Made by a program: the position numbers. A stretch of 64,000 nucleotides of DNA from assembly GCA_963798085.1 (NCBI GenBank), contig CAWCRS010000007.1:992001-1056000 (forward strand), in the 5' to 3' direction. The stretch comes from an uncultured Gemmatimonadales bacterium. Lineage in GTDB: Bacteria > Gemmatimonadota > Gemmatimonadetes > Longimicrobiales > RSA9. Shown piece after piece: positions 18,001-36,000 of the stretch; position 1 is the stretch's first letter, and each line of letters starts with the position of its first letter.

Positions 18001-21000
18001 GGGTGTACTGGCGGCCATGTACTGGTACACGCCGGCGACCGACCGCGCCCGCCTGCTGGCCATCGCCCTGATCTGCGGTGGCGCACTCGGGAACCTGGTG
18101 GACCGCGTGCGCTCGCCGCTGGGTGTGGTGGACTTCGTCGATGTGGGTCTGGGCTCACTGCGCTGGCCGGTCTTCAATGTTGCGGACATGGCTGTTACCA
18201 CGGGAGCGATCGTGCTGGCCCTTTCCCTCTGGCGGGAGGACAAGCGCGTTGCAGGAGCTGACTGAGCCGGGACCGGTGCGGCTGGTGGTGGAAGCCTCCG
18301 TGGCGGAGCGGCTGGACAGCTGGCTGGCGGCCCGCCTGCCCCAGCATTCGCGGTCGCGCATTGTGCAGCTGATCGAGCAGGGTCACGTGCGCGTGAACGG
18401 CGAGCAGCCGCGCAAGAGGGATCACCCGGCAGCGGGCGATGTCATCGAAATCGACATACCCCCACCCGAGCCGTCGGCGTTGCTGCCGGAAGCGATTCCG
18501 CTGCGCATCGCCTGGGAGGATGCGGATCTGCTCGTGGTGGACAAGCCGGCGGGCCTGGTGGTGCACCCGGCGCCGGGGCATCCGTCGGGAACGCTGGTGA
18601 ATGCGCTGCTGCACCACGCCGGCGATCTGCAGGGCATTGGCGGAGTCCGCCGGCCCGGGCTGGTGCACCGCCTGGATCGCGACACCTCCGGACTCATGCT
18701 GGTGGCGAAAACGGAGGCGGCGCAGCGCGCATTGTCGAGCGCGTTGAAGCGGCGGGAGATTCGTCGCCTGTATCAGGTTGCAGCCTGGGGCCACCTTCGA
18801 TCCGATACTGTGAAGGTGGAGGCGCCGATCGGGCGGTCGCCGTCCGATCGGAAACGCATGGCGGTAGTGGAGAGCGGGCGCGCAGCGGTCACGCATTTCG
18901 AGCGGCTGGAGCGCTGGCGAGGCGTGGATCTCCTGCAGGCAAGGCTGGAAACGGGGCGCACGCATCAGATTCGCGTTCACCTGTCGCACATCGGGCATTC
19001 CGTGGTCGGGGATCGGGCCTATGGCGGAGCAGACGATCGGGGCACGAGCGGACCGGCGCGCGTATGGGCGCGCGAGCTGTTGCAACGCGTGCACCGACAG
19101 TTTCTGCACGCGACAGAGTTGTCGTTCCGGCACCCGCGCACAGGGGAGATGATGCAACTGCGCTCGCCATTGCCCGCTGATCTGGAAGCTGCGGCCGAAT
19201 GGGCGCGGCAGACTTCGTCTGGTTGACCGCCTCGTGCGCGCGGACGTATTGTTCCCGCAGCCTGCCAGTCAAGGCTCTCCCCGAGACAAAGTCGTGCACA
19301 ATGGAGCGTGACCTTTCCATCGGCGAATCCGCGCACGCGCCACCCTCGCCGTGGGCGTTCTTCGCCTGCAGTGGCAAGGGTTACGCAGTGCCGCTGGAAC
19401 GCGTCGATGAGATCGTGCCGCCGCAACCGCTCACGCGCATTCCCGGTTGCGGACCGTCCGTGTGCGGGCTGATCGGCCTGCGCGGCCGGGTGATCACCGT
19501 GTTCGATCTGGGCGTGCTGACAGGCGTGTCAGCAGCCGCGGCGCACCCGGATTATCGTGTGGTGCTCATGTGGCGGGGCGAGCGCGTGCTTGGCCTTGCC
19601 GTTGACGAAATGATCACGATCGCCTCGCCGGAAGAGGCGGAAGACATGGAAGCCGCCAGGGACGGCGGCGCCGACGCGGCGAACCGTGCAGTGAAGATCG
19701 GCGGCCGCGAATTCACCATACTCGACCCGGACGGACTGTTTGCCACGTTGCTTACCTGACGGCCGGGCGTTGTGAGGAGGTCATGGCACGAACCGTTCTG
19801 ATCTGCGACGACGCGCTCTTCATGCGGACGATGCTGGCTGAGATCATGGAGCAGGCGGGATTCGAAGTCGTGGCACAGGCTGCCACCGGCGCGGAAGCGG
19901 TGAAGCTGTATCGCGACCTGAAACCGGACCTGGTCACGATGGATATCATCATGCCCGACATGGGTGGCATTGAAGCCGTCAAGGCGATCGTCAACGAGCA
20001 CCCGGAAGCAAACATCGTGATGTGCAGTGCAATGGGGCAGCAGGCGCTGGTCATCGAGGCGATCCAGGCCGGGGCGAGGGATTTCGTGGTCAAGCCATTC
20101 CAGCCGGCGCGCGTCCTGGAGGCGGTTCACCGCGTTCTGGGCTGATTGCGCGGAGGCGCTGTGCAATACGAGCGCTTTCTCGACCTTTACATCACGGAGA
20201 GCCGCGAGCATCTCGAGCTGCTGACGCGGAGCCTGCTGCATCTGGAGCAGGGCAAGGCGGACGCGGTCGACGATGCCTTTCGCGCGGCGCACACCATCAA
20301 GGGGTTAGCCGCCGCCATGGGTCATGCCGCGGCGGCCGCCACCGCGCACGAGCTGGAAGACCGGCTGTCCGCTGTGCGCGAGAAGAAGGAACCGGTGCAC
20401 GGCGAGCTGGTCGATGCGCTGCTCGCGGGACTGGACCGGCTCGAGCACGCCATTGAGAAGGCGGTCAGCGAACAGGGCGCGGCAGGCCTTGCGCTGGAAC
20501 GGATCGAAGGCGACGACGCCGCGTCCGGTGCGGCACACGGTGCAACCATGCCGGCGGGTGCCGCGGCTGCGACGGGGAACCCGCCTGGCGGGATTCCCGG
20601 ACCGGTTGTCACACCGGCGCCGCCGGGTACGCGCACGGTAGCTGTCGTTCACCTCGTGCCTGACGCGGCCCTGCCCGAAGCCAGGGTGCAGCTGATCCGG
20701 CGTGCGCTGCAGCGCGCGGGGGCATTGCTCGACTCCTCACCGGACATCGGCGAGCGCTACGGCGGCGAGCTGCGACTCTACCTGAACGCGGTAGCGGACG
20801 CGGCAACCGTGGAAGCGGCGATCCGTGCCTGCGGCGAAGTGGCGGACGTGCGCTTCGAGAAGCCACCACGGAGTGGTTCGAACGGGATTGGCGAAGCATC
20901 CTCAGCAACCGCAGCGAAGTTACCGGACGGAGGCGGCAGACCGGCTGCGACGCAAAGCCGCACGGTGCGCGTCGACCGCGCACGACTGGACGAGCTGGCC

Positions 21001-33000: not shown

Positions 33001-36000
33001 AGCGCCGGCTCGGCAGCGGGCGAGGAAGCCTACTCCGTCGCCATGCTGCTGCTGCAGCACGCGGCCGAACACAATGTTGGCCTCGACGGCTTCCACATCC
33101 TCGCGACGGACATCGACGACGATTCACTGGAACAGGCGAAACGGGCCGAGTACCCTGCTTTCGCGTTCGGCGAGATGTCGGAGCAGACGCGTGCGCGCTG
33201 GTTCGAGGGGCCGAAGCGCGACAGGCTGAAGGCGGAGGTGAAGGCGCTCGTGCAGTTCGATCGGCTCGACCTGATGACGTCGGAGTTTCCCGCCGACCGC
33301 CACCTCATCCTCTGCCGCAACGTGCTGATCTACTTCGAGCGCGACATCCAGAAGCAGTTGTTCCGCCGCTTCCACGATGCGCTCGTGCCGCAGGGATACC
33401 TGCAGCTGGGAAAGGTCGAGACGCTGTTCGGTGCGCCGCCCGGATTGTTCGAGACGGTGTCGGCGCGCGAACGCCTGTTCCGCCGCACATGAGCGTGCAC
33501 CGCGAGCCGGTCACCATCGGAGAGGCGAAGGTGGCGCGCGCAGACACCGTCCTCTACACACTGGGCATCGGCTCGTGCGTCGCCATTGTGTTGTACAATG
33601 GCGATCAGCGCATTGGCGGCCTGGCGCACGCGCTGCTGCCCGATCCGCGCTCGGGCCGCTCCCCGGCGCCAGCCGCACGCTTCGCCTCCACCGCTGTGGA
33701 CGCGCTCATTGCCATGATGCAGGAGACCGGCGCCAATGCACGCCGCCTGCGCGCCAAGCTGGCGGGCGGTGCATCCATGTTCGATACACTGCTCACCGAA
33801 GGCGGACGCCAGCTGGGCCTGCGCAATGTGGAAGCGGCGCGCTCGGCGCTGGCGCGCGCAGGCGTGCCCGTCGACGGCGAAGACACGGGCGGCACGCACG
33901 GCCGGTCCGTGTACCTGCACGTGGATGAAGGACGCGTCGTCGTCGCATCCGTGATGTTCCCTGATGTCATCCTCTGAGCCGGGCGCCGAGGCACCCACCA
34001 CCGTGCTCGTGGTGGAAGACGCGACCGCAGCGCGCGCCGAACTGCTGTCCATCATCCAGGCGGCCGACGGCTACAATGTCGTGGCCGAGGCGAGGTCCGG
34101 GTACGAGGCGATCCGCGCCATCCACGAACGCAACCCCGACATCGTCGTGCTGGGGCTGGGCGCCATGGACGTGCGCGGCATTGAAGTACTGGCCTACATT
34201 TCGGCGGAAGCACCGCGGCCGGTGGTGGTGCTGAGCGGGCACGCACAAATGCTCGCGGATCCCGCCCTCGCGACCGTGGATTTCGGTAACATCGAGTTTG
34301 TGGTGCGCCCCGCCGGCGATGGCCGCCTCGATGTGCTGCGCGGCAGACTGCTCACCGCCCTCGACGCCGCCGCCACGGCCCGCATTGGCGGATTGCGCAT
34401 GAACCGGGCGCGACGCGCGGCGGCGCGCGCCAGCCGCGCGGCGAGGCGGGCGGCACGCACGGGCGGCGATGAAGCCGGCACACCGGCGCAGTGCGTGATC
34501 GCGATTGCCGCATCCACAGGCGGGCCGCGCGCCCTGCTCCAGGTCATCCCGCAGATTCCCGGCGATCTGCCCGCGGCCGTGCTCATCGTGCAGCACATGC
34601 CCGCCATCTTCACCTCGTTCCTGGCGGAGCGCCTGAACCGCTCCAGCGCGCTGCGCGTGAAGCAGGCGACCGCGGGTGAGCTGCTCAAGGCGGGCGTGGC
34701 GTACCTCGCGCCCGGGGGCCTGCACATGGCGCTGCAACGCACCGCCGCCGGCATCTCGGTGCTGCTCGAAGACAGTGAGCCCGTGTGGGGACTGCGACCC
34801 GCCGCCAATGTCCTGTTCAGCTCCGTGGCGCGCCACTTCGGGCCGCGTACCGTGGGGGTCGTACTGACCGGCATGGGCAAGGATGGCAGCGCGGGACTGC
34901 GCGCCATCCACGACGTGGGCGGCTGGACAGCGGTGCAGGACGCCAGCACCGCCGTCGTTGCCAGCATGCCGCGCGCGGCCCGGCCCTTCGCCGGCGTGGA
35001 GCTGACCCTCGACCGCGTGGCCGCGGTGATCAGCGAACAGGCAGCGGCCCGCGCCCGGCCCACGCCGTGAGCGCGGCGAGCGTTCTGCTCGCCTGCACGC
35101 TCCTCGCGGCCGCCCCCGCCCGCTGCCCCGCGCGCGCGCCGCACAGGATCGCTGCAACATCGCTGCCATCGCGCTCAGCAGAAGCCCGGGCGCAACGGAA
35201 GACGCGGCAGCAGCCCGGCGCCTCGCTGCACAGCGGCCAGCTCAGCTTCCGCTGGTGGCCGGGAGGCGAGAAACTGGCGGAGGCCCTGGCGAACGCGGCC
35301 CGTAATATCGTGTTAGCGGCACTCCCGGCCGACATCCTCGAGCAGCCGCCCGCCATCACCATATTCCTGGCGCCCGACGAAGAGCGGTTCGACTCGCTGA
35401 CACAGGGTCAGGCGCCACACTGGGGCGCGGGTGTGGCGTTCCCCGAAAGCGGTGTTATCGTGCTGCCGGCCTACAGCTCCGCGCGCGCCGCACCGCACGA
35501 GCTGGCCGGCATCCTGCGCCACGAGCTGGCACACGTCGCACTGCAGCGCTACCTCGGCGGCGCACAGGTACCGCGCTGGTTCACCGAAGGCTACGCCGTG
35601 TTCAGCGCGGGACAGCTCGACGAAAGCGCCGGCTGGATCCTGCGCCTCGCCTTCCTCACCGGGCACGCGCCGCCCCTCGATTCGCTTTCGCTCGACTGGC
35701 CCTCGCGCACAACGGACGCGCGCGTCGCATACCTGCTCTCCGCCAGCGCCGTCTCCTGGCTGTACGGCAACGGCGGTGAGCGTGTGCTGCAGATCTTCCT
35801 GCAACGCTGGCGAGACGGCGGCAACTTCGAGCGCGCGCTTTTCGACACCTATGGGCTCGATCTCGGACACATGGAGAAATACTGGTCCGCCAGCGTCAGA
35901 CGACGCTACGGCTGGCTGCTCTTCGTCGCCCAGTCCGTCGTGCTGTGGGCGCTCACCGCCATGCTCGTGCTGTTCCTGTTCCTGCTGCGCCGCCGGCGCA

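What a model noticed while it worked through the whole genome (the two positions that open the first line are those of the whole stretch)
19199..35070. DnaA-derived tandem AAA+ ATPase inside a conserved Che-MglA/MglB operon
One operon joins cheW-cheY-cheA-cheC, a TPR protein, two DUF4388/PatA_N-TPR proteins, three roadblock (MglB-like) genes, an MglA GTPase and cheR-cheD-cheB; it holds no receptor gene. In its middle sits g03658, routinely named DnaA, which has two DnaA-type AAA+ modules joined by a helical linker and lacks domain I and the DNA-binding domain IV. The true dnaA is on C3.
Evidence so far: 20 of 20 fetched Gemmatimonadetes loci keep roadblock-mglA-dnaA2-DUF4388 in this order, 18 of them with cheY/cheA/cheC. 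In call 69 the long two-module hit appears in class genomes only; other classes give short, weaker hits. Pfam finds two Bac_DnaA/AAA stretches and no DnaA_N or DnaA_C. In 110 homologues Walker A/B of module 1 are conserved and module 2 is degenerate. AlphaFold model pLDDT 86 with two alpha/beta cores. PMC4316618 (passages read, call 66) lists MglA in the phylum and notes that the characterised mglA genes of Myxococcus and Bdellovibrio are not near their partners. Searches 63, 73 and 75 found no such operon.
(Added by a program. Inside this text positions count along the whole contig: contig position 992,001 is position 1 of the stretch shown here. "Call 12" and the like, gene names such as g00115 and contig names such as C1 are that model's own, and its searches are not shown. 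The text may have been shortened before it was handed on; [...] marks where a part breaks off. The agent that wrote the report below was given it as the finding of a first reader that could run no searches.)

Follow-up and report, generated by a model that had tools for sequence, protein, structure and literature searches.

The report
Repurposed DnaA ATPase in polarity operon
Most bacteria of the class Gemmatimonadetes carry, inside a chemosensory and cell-polarity operon, a protein built from the ATP motor of the replication starter DnaA without its DNA-address domain; it appears to dock by its tail onto a neighbouring signalling adaptor and has relatives in archaea, so a replication engine seems to have been reused for signalling.

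Summary
Observation confirmed. cheW-cheY-cheA-cheC-TPR-PATAN/TPR-three roadblocks-mglA-'DnaA2'-PATAN/TPR-cheR-cheD-cheB lies on one strand; DnaA2 has two DnaA ATPase modules and no domain I or IV; true dnaA is on C3. In an even sample DnaA2 occurs in 101 of 134 class genomes, beside mglA in 93 of 98; only 27 of 101 have flagella. Corrections: module 2 is nearly intact in other orders or absent altogether; other classes keep one-module orthologues; receptors lie elsewhere. New here: the constant core is module 1 plus a conserved C-terminal tail, always followed by the TPR gene. All 8 loci that lost DnaA2 (2-3 events) also lost the partner's last TPRs, and 7 its MshEN c-di-GMP motif. The linker is a ~100-residue repeat shared with DnaA-ATPase proteins of Thermoplasmatota archaea. 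Best reading: a non-replicative ATP switch tethered by its tail to a PATAN-MshEN-TPR adaptor, acting on type IV pili or polarity (about 45%); no binding or activity is shown. Not found in print; a 2014 table lists only the PATAN-mglA-PATAN neighbourhood. This scan noted the protein twice before in other genomes, and the archaeal proteins separately.

The parts
19199..19759 (+). cheW (likely start 19301); overlaps the end of rluA of the ileS-lspA-rluA block
   Evidence: Pfam CheW; ORFs
19783..20145 (+). cheY
   Evidence: Pfam Response_reg
20146..22053 (+). cheA (Hpt, P2, dimerisation, HATPase, CheW)
22057..22674 (+). cheC phosphatase
22671..25385 (+). 904-aa TPR protein
25389..26519 (+). PATAN (DUF4388)-TPR protein a, with an MshEN-type insert (NF053729 51.9 bits, cut-off 38)
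26516..27794 (+). TPR-linker-roadblock gene; frame changes inside the Pro/Ala linker (about 26930-27430) in this assembly
27791..28156 (+). roadblock protein
   Evidence: Pfam Robl_LC7
28156..28650 (+). MglB-like roadblock protein
   Evidence: NF052242 hit below its cut-off
28640..29263 (+). MglA small GTPase (operon paralogue; a second mglBA pair lies at C7:1264201)
29276..30976 (+). DnaA2, 566 aa: DnaA-type module 1, helical repeat, module 2, conserved tail; no domain I or IV
29288..29971 (+). Module 1 (domain IIIa+IIIb): Walker A K52, Walker B D103/D104, sensor I D137, arginine finger R153, sensor II R202 kept; ssDNA-binding ISM residues changed
30062..30343 (+). ~100-residue helical repeat (W-x3-GY-x4-L ... 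L-x-[DN]P[DE]), also in archaeal DnaA-ATPase proteins in 1-8 copies
30398..30841 (+). Module 2 (IIIa only here; no lid, arginine finger replaced by L)
30896..30973 (+). C-terminal tail, family consensus REK-x-V-W-x-W-P-x4-R-x2-EE-L; proposed TPR ligand
30978..32600 (+). PATAN (DUF4388)-MshEN-TPR protein b, constant downstream partner
31146..31307 (+). MshEN-type c-di-GMP motif in protein b (NF053729 42.2 bits, cut-off 38); deleted in 7 of 8 loci that lack DnaA2
32436..32597 (+). last TPRs of protein b (about residues 487-540); missing in 8 of 8 loci that lack DnaA2
32542..33492 (+). cheR (start probably about 45 bases downstream of the ORF start)
33489..33977 (+). cheD
33964..35070 (+). cheB

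Best explanation
DnaA2 is a non-replicative, nucleotide-controlled switch or scaffold made from DnaA domain III. Module 1 binds and hydrolyses ATP and assembles head to tail as DnaA does (inferred from kept motifs). Module 2 is an optional second subunit on a helical spacer. The disordered C-terminal tail docks in the last TPRs of the downstream PATAN-MshEN-TPR adaptor (inferred from co-loss). The adaptor reads c-di-GMP through its MshEN-type motif and passes the output on through PATAN, most likely to the type IV pilus motor or a polar complex (inferred from characterised PATAN and MglA-TPR systems). The Che proteins, fed by receptors encoded elsewhere, and the MglA/roadblock module supply inputs. 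Shown: anatomy, motifs, gene linkage, co-loss. Inferred: every activity and contact. My odds by step: not an initiator 0.9; tail-TPR contact 0.65; c-di-GMP binding by the adaptor 0.6; pilus/polarity output 0.55.
For: No domain I/IV, below the DnaA cut-off (291 vs 343.9), separate full dnaA. Module 1 in 120 close homologues: Walker A K 98%, Walker B DD 100%, sensor I 99%, arginine finger 100%, sensor II 100%, while ssDNA contacts drift (N187 to E 52%, I190 to M 71%, K222 to R 69%; B. subtilis numbering, roles from PMC10721633 and PMC8287927 passages). DnaA2 is directly followed by protein b in 33 of 33 loci, including one that kept nothing else of the operon (L094); other classes keep only module+tail followed by a TPR-only gene, 6 of 6. 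8 of 8 loci that lost DnaA2 have protein b ending at residue 463-486; 7 of 8 lack the MshEN insert; 5 of the 8 still carry mglA, so the lost TPRs track DnaA2 and not MglA; 2-3 events on an RluA tree. Natural fusions among relatives: DnaA2-PATAN-TPR (P0234), DnaA2-receiver (P0164), MshEN-DnaA-DnaA (P0166, P0169). pilM in 98 of 101 DnaA2 genomes, fliG in 27 of 101. 14 GGDEF matches in G000. PATAN binds PilB1/PilC in Synechocystis (10.1101/2021.06.11.447907, abstract); MglA-GTP acts on pili through the TPR protein SgmX (PMC7519303, abstract).
Against: No experiment exists. pilM is in 142 of 151 genomes, including those without the operon, so it does not discriminate. The co-loss rests on 2-3 events and a single event is not rejected (AU p 0.11; 0.08 and 0.56). 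Both MshEN halves meet the published relaxed motif in only 5 of 33 partners, at least one half in 24 of 33. Module 2 and the archaeal forms keep base-capture residues (R202 98-100%, E228 97-100%, I/V190 in most), so nucleic-acid binding is not excluded. One-module orthologues in f11/f12 lose sensor I and sit among glycosyltransferase genes with no che or mgl neighbours. In Myxococcus, C-terminal TPRs bind MglA-GTP (PMC9811614, passages), an alternative ligand.
Confidence: 0.45

Rival explanations
1. Catalytically dispensable scaffold: the fold and the tail matter, ATP turnover does not. The protein is a spacer or adaptor that holds the TPR partner.
For: Module 2 is lost or degenerate in many lineages; one-module forms often erode (arginine finger 79%, sensor I 70% in 33 proteins); f11/f12 orthologues lose sensor I yet keep tail and TPR neighbour.
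Against: All five catalytic motifs of module 1 are 98-100% conserved in 120 homologues and 81-100% in 26 loci from across the class.
Confidence: 0.18
2. Same ATP switch and adaptor, but the output is another machine (gliding, cell division or budding polarity, secretion or exopolysaccharide), not type IV pili.
For: pilM does not co-vary with the operon; the locus follows ileS-lspA-rluA with divIVA and the dcw cluster nearby; f11/f12 orthologues lie downstream of glycosyltransferase genes.
Against: The characterised PATAN and MglA-TPR systems act on pili; an MshEN-DnaA-DnaA relative has a PilB-like N-terminus. Gliding genes were not profiled here.
Confidence: 0.15
3. Hda-like regulator of the true DnaA: its arginine finger inactivates or caps DnaA filaments and ties replication initiation to chemosensory/polarity state.
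For: Arginine finger and box VII region invariant in module 1; no other DnaA/Hda-like gene in G000 by tblastn; databases name it 'DnaA/Hda family'.
Against: Clamp motif absent in 0 of 120 N-termini; 129.9 bits against an Hda cut-off of 194.8; Walker A keeps Lys where E. coli Hda has Arg (PMC5397184, passages); not found in 33 of 134 class genomes; relatives occur in archaea, which by textbook knowledge do not use DnaA.
Confidence: 0.12
4. Single-strand nucleic-acid binder, for example capturing DNA taken up through pili, with module 2 as the binding unit.
For: Module 2 keeps R202, R206, E228 and mostly I/V190; archaeal modules keep E183, I190, R202, K222, E228 at 97-100%.
Against: Module 2 is dispensable; module 1 has lost these residues and the window's own copy has a 6-residue ISM deletion. 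These residues also line the subunit interface (recalled for E. coli R227; not from a call).
Confidence: 0.1

Closest known systems
DnaA, replication initiator, domain III (PF00308; PDB 8bv3, 8btg, 2z4r, 2hcb)
   Same: Module 1 superposes at 2.4 A over 232 columns on 8bv3 and keeps Walker A/B, sensors I and II and the arginine finger.
   Different: No domain I or IV; ISM residues changed in module 1; Trp267 replaced by G/S/A; extra repeat, second module and tail; separate true dnaA; no DnaA box in the window.
Hda / HdaA (regulatory inactivator of DnaA)
   Same: Domain III without domain IV, with an arginine finger.
   Different: No clamp-binding motif, below the family cut-off, twice the length, Walker A Lys kept, signalling neighbourhood.
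Myxococcus Frz - MglA/MglB - SgmX polarity and type IV pilus control
   Same: Chemosensory system, MglA GTPase, several roadblock proteins and TPR adaptors.
   Different: All in one operon; Che set with CheC and CheD; no DnaA-type ATPase is described in the passages read; RomR/RomX/SgmX orthologues were not searched.
PATAN (DUF4388) proteins next to mglA, and MshEN-bearing ATPases (MshE/PilB)
   Same: PATAN-mglA neighbourhoods, including GAU_1409, are tabulated in PMC4316618 Table S2; an MshEN motif in a REC-DUF4388 protein is listed in the PMC5013675 supplement; MshEN controls ATPases.
   Different: Here MshEN sits on a separate TPR adaptor whose presence tracks a DnaA-type ATPase, not a secretion ATPase.
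Archaeal DnaA-ATPase proteins of Thermoplasmatota (DnaA+DUF835; repeats+DnaA+zinc ribbon), uncharacterised
   Same: DnaA module without domain IV, same helical repeat, same changes at Walker A position 1 and Trp267.
   Different: One module, 1-8 repeats placed before it, other terminal domains, no tail; gene context not obtained here.

Membership tests
DnaA initiator | Domain IV (DnaA-box binding) and domain I | tested here: not met
   No DnaA_C or DnaA_N; a domain IV profile finds none in A-R-A or A-R proteins
DnaA initiator | Walker A/B, sensor I, arginine finger, sensor II | tested here: met
   Module 1, 98-100% of 120 homologues
DnaA initiator | ISM ssDNA/base-capture residues (E183, N187, I190, R202, K222, E228) | tested here: inconclusive
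   Changed in module 1, partly kept in module 2 (roles from PMC10721633)
DnaA initiator | Score above TIGR00362 cut-off; DnaA boxes nearby | tested here: not met
   291 vs 343.9; no consensus box in the window, one before C3 dnaA
Hda | N-terminal clamp-binding motif (QLSLF type) | tested here: not met
   0 of 120 (motif from PMC5397184)
Hda | Arginine finger in box VII | tested here: met
   R153 invariant in module 1
Hda | Stimulates ATP hydrolysis by DnaA on the clamp | not testable with these tools
   Needs biochemistry
Chemosensory system | CheA, CheW, CheY, CheR, CheB (plus CheC, CheD) | tested here: met
Chemosensory system | Chemoreceptors available | tested here: met
   None in the operon; MCPs elsewhere in 84 of 84 cheD-linked genomes
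Flagellar chemotaxis system | Flagellar switch present in carriers | tested here: not met
   fliG found in 27 of 101 DnaA2 genomes; G000 has a second cheA by its flagellar genes
MglA/MglB polarity module | MglA GTPase with adjacent roadblock (MglB-type) gene | tested here: met
   listed as Group 1 MglA for Gemmatimonas. MglB hit is below the NCBIfam cut-off
MglA/MglB polarity module | RomR/RomX/SgmX partners | not tested
   No search made
MglA/MglB polarity module | GAP activity and polar switching | not testable with these tools
   Needs experiments
MshEN c-di-GMP receptor (partner proteins) | Tandem 24-residue RLGxxL..G...L...L..Q motif | tested here: inconclusive
   Both window proteins pass NF053729; relaxed motif of PMC5013675 met in at least one half in 24 of 33 partners, both halves in 5 of 33
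PATAN domain (archaeal relatives' N-terminus) | Profile match to DUF4388/PATAN | tested here: inconclusive
   hhalign probability 0.4%, E 0.15, 37 columns in register; no Pfam match

The most novel reading that the evidence does not exclude
DnaA2 belongs to an undescribed family, spread over Gemmatimonadota, other bacteria and Thermoplasmatota archaea, in which the DnaA filament engine was freed from DNA once and rebuilt as a signalling polymer. In Gemmatimonadetes it forms a split, c-di-GMP-gated ATPase with a PATAN-MshEN-TPR adaptor that joins Che and MglA signals to set cell polarity.
Probability: 0.3. Interest if true: 0.88.

Novelty: new variant of a known kind. Interest (0 to 1): 0.7.

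Why it matters
The DnaA-clade ATPases I know of (DnaA, Hda, DnaC/DnaI, IstB; recalled) all act on DNA transactions. A member working in polarity or pilus signalling would be a new use of that engine and a new component type for MglA systems. The operon is present in about three quarters of a widespread, little-studied soil class, mostly without flagella, and is routinely mis-named dnaA. The co-loss pattern yields cheap direct tests: a 26-residue tail, two TPRs and one c-di-GMP motif. The shared repeat ties it to the unexplained bacterial-type DnaA domains of Thermoplasmatota archaea.

Tried and rejected
Complex prediction of tail with TPR domain: tool not available, so no verdict. A single-chain fold of the natural fusion P0234 was prepared but not run: the mixed alignment was poor and the fusion seems to lack part of the candidate TPR. 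Locus scan with the single protein found nothing; the alignment scan gave 11 family loci of 80, the rest ordinary dnaA. Metagenome scan for archaeal loci returned no locus with the repeat among 80, so archaeal gene context is unknown. Fold search of the repeat: best Z 6.6 (EzrA, rmsd 8.9), none at 8 or more; generic helical matches only. Atlas search with the repeat: no usable hit. PATAN identity of the archaeal N-terminus not shown. One origin for all domain-IV-less modules: SH-aLRT 97-98 in two quick trees but one side of a branch in only 40% of bootstrap trees in the careful tree, with one full DnaA (L147) inside; an origin from the phylum's own dnaA is not rejected (AU p 0.21). 48 of 114 rows, mostly long or redundant, were dropped, one more. 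Three tandem proteins (P0167, P0221, P0233) group with proteobacterial DnaA and are unrelated duplications. My recollection that an FrzS C-terminal peptide binds SgmX was not borne out: the passages name the receiver domain. Promoter/terminator scan at chance level. No RNA holder listed. The 'loose' pattern was faulty and is ignored; one search replaces it. Paper searches that listed no description of this protein or operon: (listings only; open-access library). The 2006 PATAN paper was not seen and may bear on novelty; file 1 of the PMC4316618 supplements and bioRxiv supplements were not searchable.

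
Full report
Observation. The region 19199-35070 holds, on the + strand and with touching or overlapping ends, cheW, cheY, cheA, cheC, a 904-aa TPR gene, a DUF4388(PATAN)-TPR gene (a), a TPR-roadblock gene, two roadblock genes, mglA, a 566-aa DnaA-like gene (DnaA2), a second DUF4388-TPR gene (b), cheR, cheD and cheB. The block follows ileS-lspA-rluA, here and in relatives wherever the fetched stretch reaches that far. 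The TPR-roadblock gene changes frame inside its Pro/Ala linker in this assembly and is one ORF in the 4 relatives printed. The true dnaA (459 aa, domains I-IV) is on C3. AlphaFold gives DnaA2 two alpha/beta cores, a helical linker and a low-confidence tail (pLDDT 85.2, pTM 0.48); module 1 matches B. subtilis DnaA domain III at 2.4 A.

Frequency from independent anchors. In 151 genomes drawn evenly from the phylum (134 in the class, including G000 and the unpublished G055 and G095, which count in these tallies), a long linker+module 2 match or a fetched locus shows DnaA2 in 101 class genomes. Of 98 genomes with the operon-type mglA, 93 have DnaA2 within 2.5 kb; 2 of the other 5 have the genes on different contigs and 3 lack DnaA2. 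Of 88 class genomes with cheD, 84 have it within 5 kb of DnaA2. fliG was found in 27 of the 101, pilM in 98, and pilM in 142 of all 151. MCPs were found in all 84 cheD-linked genomes; the 6 DnaA2 genomes without an MCP have also lost cheD. So the Che half has receptors encoded elsewhere and mostly serves something other than flagella. In a second sample of family f5 the repeat was found in 99 of 111 genomes (includes unpublished G156, G168). These genomes are kin and some are incomplete; the counts describe, they do not test.

Anatomy. With B. subtilis numbering and residue roles from PMC8287927 and PMC10721633 (passages), module 1 keeps Walker A Lys (98%), both Walker B Asp (100%), sensor I (99%), the arginine finger (100%) and sensor II (100%) in 120 close homologues, while N187, I190 and K222 are replaced. 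Module 2 varies by lineage: lidless and eroded near the window's protein (its own finger is Leu), nearly complete in 26 loci mostly from other orders (K 96%, DD 85%, finger 100%, sensor II 77%, sensor I 35%), and absent in 33 proteins, 23 of which end in the tail. Module 2 keeps R202 and E228 (97-100%), which leaves nucleic-acid binding open. The clamp motif of Hda (PMC5397184, passages) is absent in 0 of 120 N-termini, and the protein falls below the DnaA and Hda cut-offs. A C-terminal tail, consensus REKxVWxWPxxxxRxxEEL, is kept across the family after a variable linker.

The constant partner. Gene b follows DnaA2 directly in 33 of 33 loci, even in L094 where nothing else of the operon remains and in loci that lost che genes (L090, L091). 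In families f11 and f12 of other classes, a one-module DnaA-like protein with the same tail is followed by a TPR-only gene homologous to residues 237-540 of protein b in 6 of 6 genomes, two of them reached through the TPR anchor; it was not found in 2 f10 genomes. These loci have no mglA or che neighbours. Conversely, all 8 loci examined that keep gene b but lost DnaA2 (G034, G045, G050, G070, G072, G112, G160, G175; 5 genera) encode a protein b ending at residue 463-486, without the last TPRs. In DnaA2 genomes the match runs to 529-540; the three exceptions were a full-length protein with an insertion (G086), a frameshifted copy (G125) and a contig break (G013). G186 has full-length gene b at a contig start and no repeat hit, which is compatible with a missing contig but cannot be decided. 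Five of the 8 keep mglA next door, so the lost TPRs track DnaA2. An RluA tree needs 2-3 changes for these losses (no bootstrap tree with 1), but the AU test does not reject one event (p 0.11). The simplest reading is that the tail binds the last TPRs.

c-di-GMP link. Both PATAN proteins of the window pass NCBIfam's MshE-related c-di-GMP motif cut-off (51.9 and 42.2 against 38). Against the relaxed motif of PMC5013675 (passages), 24 of 33 partners meet at least one half and 5 both. The insert is cleanly deleted in 7 of the 8 DnaA2-less loci. G000 has 14 GGDEF matches. Among relatives, P0166 and P0169 fuse MshEN to two DnaA modules, P0164 fuses DnaA2 to a receiver domain, and P0234 fuses it to PATAN-TPR; each is a single-sequence cluster where checked and may be an artefact.

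Wider family. The linker is a ~100-residue helical unit (pLDDT 91.7 alone; no specific fold match). A profile built only from Gemmatimonadetes linkers scores 16-29 bits on 20 of 22 other proteins tested (not on the two MshEN fusions), often in several copies, against at most 4.6 for reversed, 3.8 for shuffled and 15.5 for any other G000 reading frame. These include long proteins with up to 8 repeats, one DnaA module and zinc ribbons, and DnaA+DUF835 proteins; one cluster member is named a Methanomassiliicoccales archaeon, and the Atlas places the nearest cluster (115 members) in Archaea, commonest Thermoplasmatota, with Gemmatimonadota clusters next (scores under 0.9, leads only). They share Ser at Walker A position 1 and Gly/Ser at Trp267. 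Quick trees put all domain-IV-less modules in one clade apart from the phylum's dnaA (SH-aLRT 97-98); the careful tree weakens this (40% of bootstrap trees; one full DnaA with similar changes inside) and an in-phylum origin is not rejected (p 0.21). Common ancestry therefore rests mainly on the shared repeat.

Mechanism. Most likely DnaA2 is an ATP-dependent, self-assembling switch tethered by its tail to a PATAN-MshEN-TPR adaptor, with Che and MglA/roadblock inputs and type IV pili or a polar complex as output (0.45). PATAN binds the pilus motor in Synechocystis (10.1101/2021.06.11.447907, abstract); MglA-GTP acts on pili through the TPR protein SgmX (PMC7519303, abstract); c-di-GMP binds pilus ATPases directly in other bacteria (PMC11580455, passage). 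Rivals: passive scaffold (0.18), other output (0.15), Hda-like regulator (0.12), ssDNA binder (0.10).

Comparison and novelty. It is not a DnaA or Hda by membership. The system works like the Myxococcus Che-MglAB-TPR module and the PATAN regulators, and PMC4316618 Table S2 already lists the Gemmatimonas neighbourhood as PATAN>MglA>-PATAN>, with no mention of DnaA in the main text or that file. Nine paper searches listed no description of the protein (listings only). Earlier scan notes saw the protein in two other genomes and the archaeal proteins in others; the summaries shown to me do not mention the tail-TPR co-loss, the MshEN co-loss or the shared repeat. Verdict: real, conserved, an undescribed protein family inside a new variant of a known kind of system; function untested; interest 0.7.

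Noticed in passing
window 26516-27794: TPR-roadblock gene is frameshifted in a long Pro/Ala linker; intact in relatives. Assembly error or recent lesion.
   Followed up: partly
window 34785-36128; L210:2328-3281: A Peptidase_MA_2 gene follows cheB here and follows the DnaA-like/TPR pair in an f11 genome, so the chromosomal site may predate the che-mgl block.
   Followed up: partly
G000 C7:1264201 (L206:8604-9792): Second mglB-mglA pair directly after dnaX-ybaB-recR; a second MglA is present in most class genomes.
   Followed up: partly
window 12011-13717: DivIVA-domain protein of 568 aa, unusually long, just upstream of pnp-ileS in a diderm bacterium.
   Followed up: no
window 10016-10945: CdaA-type diadenylate cyclase (DAC) gene upstream of the operon.
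   Followed up: no
P0167, P0221, P0233: Independent tandem duplications of DnaA domain III that group with proteobacterial DnaA; P0167 keeps domain IV (A-A-IV).
   Followed up: partly
P0166, P0169: 1876-1990-aa proteins: MshEN, DnaA module, about 1150-1250 helical residues, second DnaA module; organism unnamed.
   Followed up: partly
P0296, P0297: Long proteins that carry the same helical repeat but no DnaA domain in their Pfam lists.
   Followed up: no
L147:2957-4294: Full-length metagenomic DnaA with Ser in Walker A position 1 and Ala at Trp267, like the domain-IV-less family; possible relative of the donor lineage.
   Followed up: partly
G048:C50, G169:C51, G222:C64: Second copies of the repeat-bearing protein elsewhere in three genomes.
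   Followed up: no
window 49736-64000: Ordinary dcw cluster (mraW, ftsI, mur genes, mraY, murG, ftsQ).
   Followed up: no
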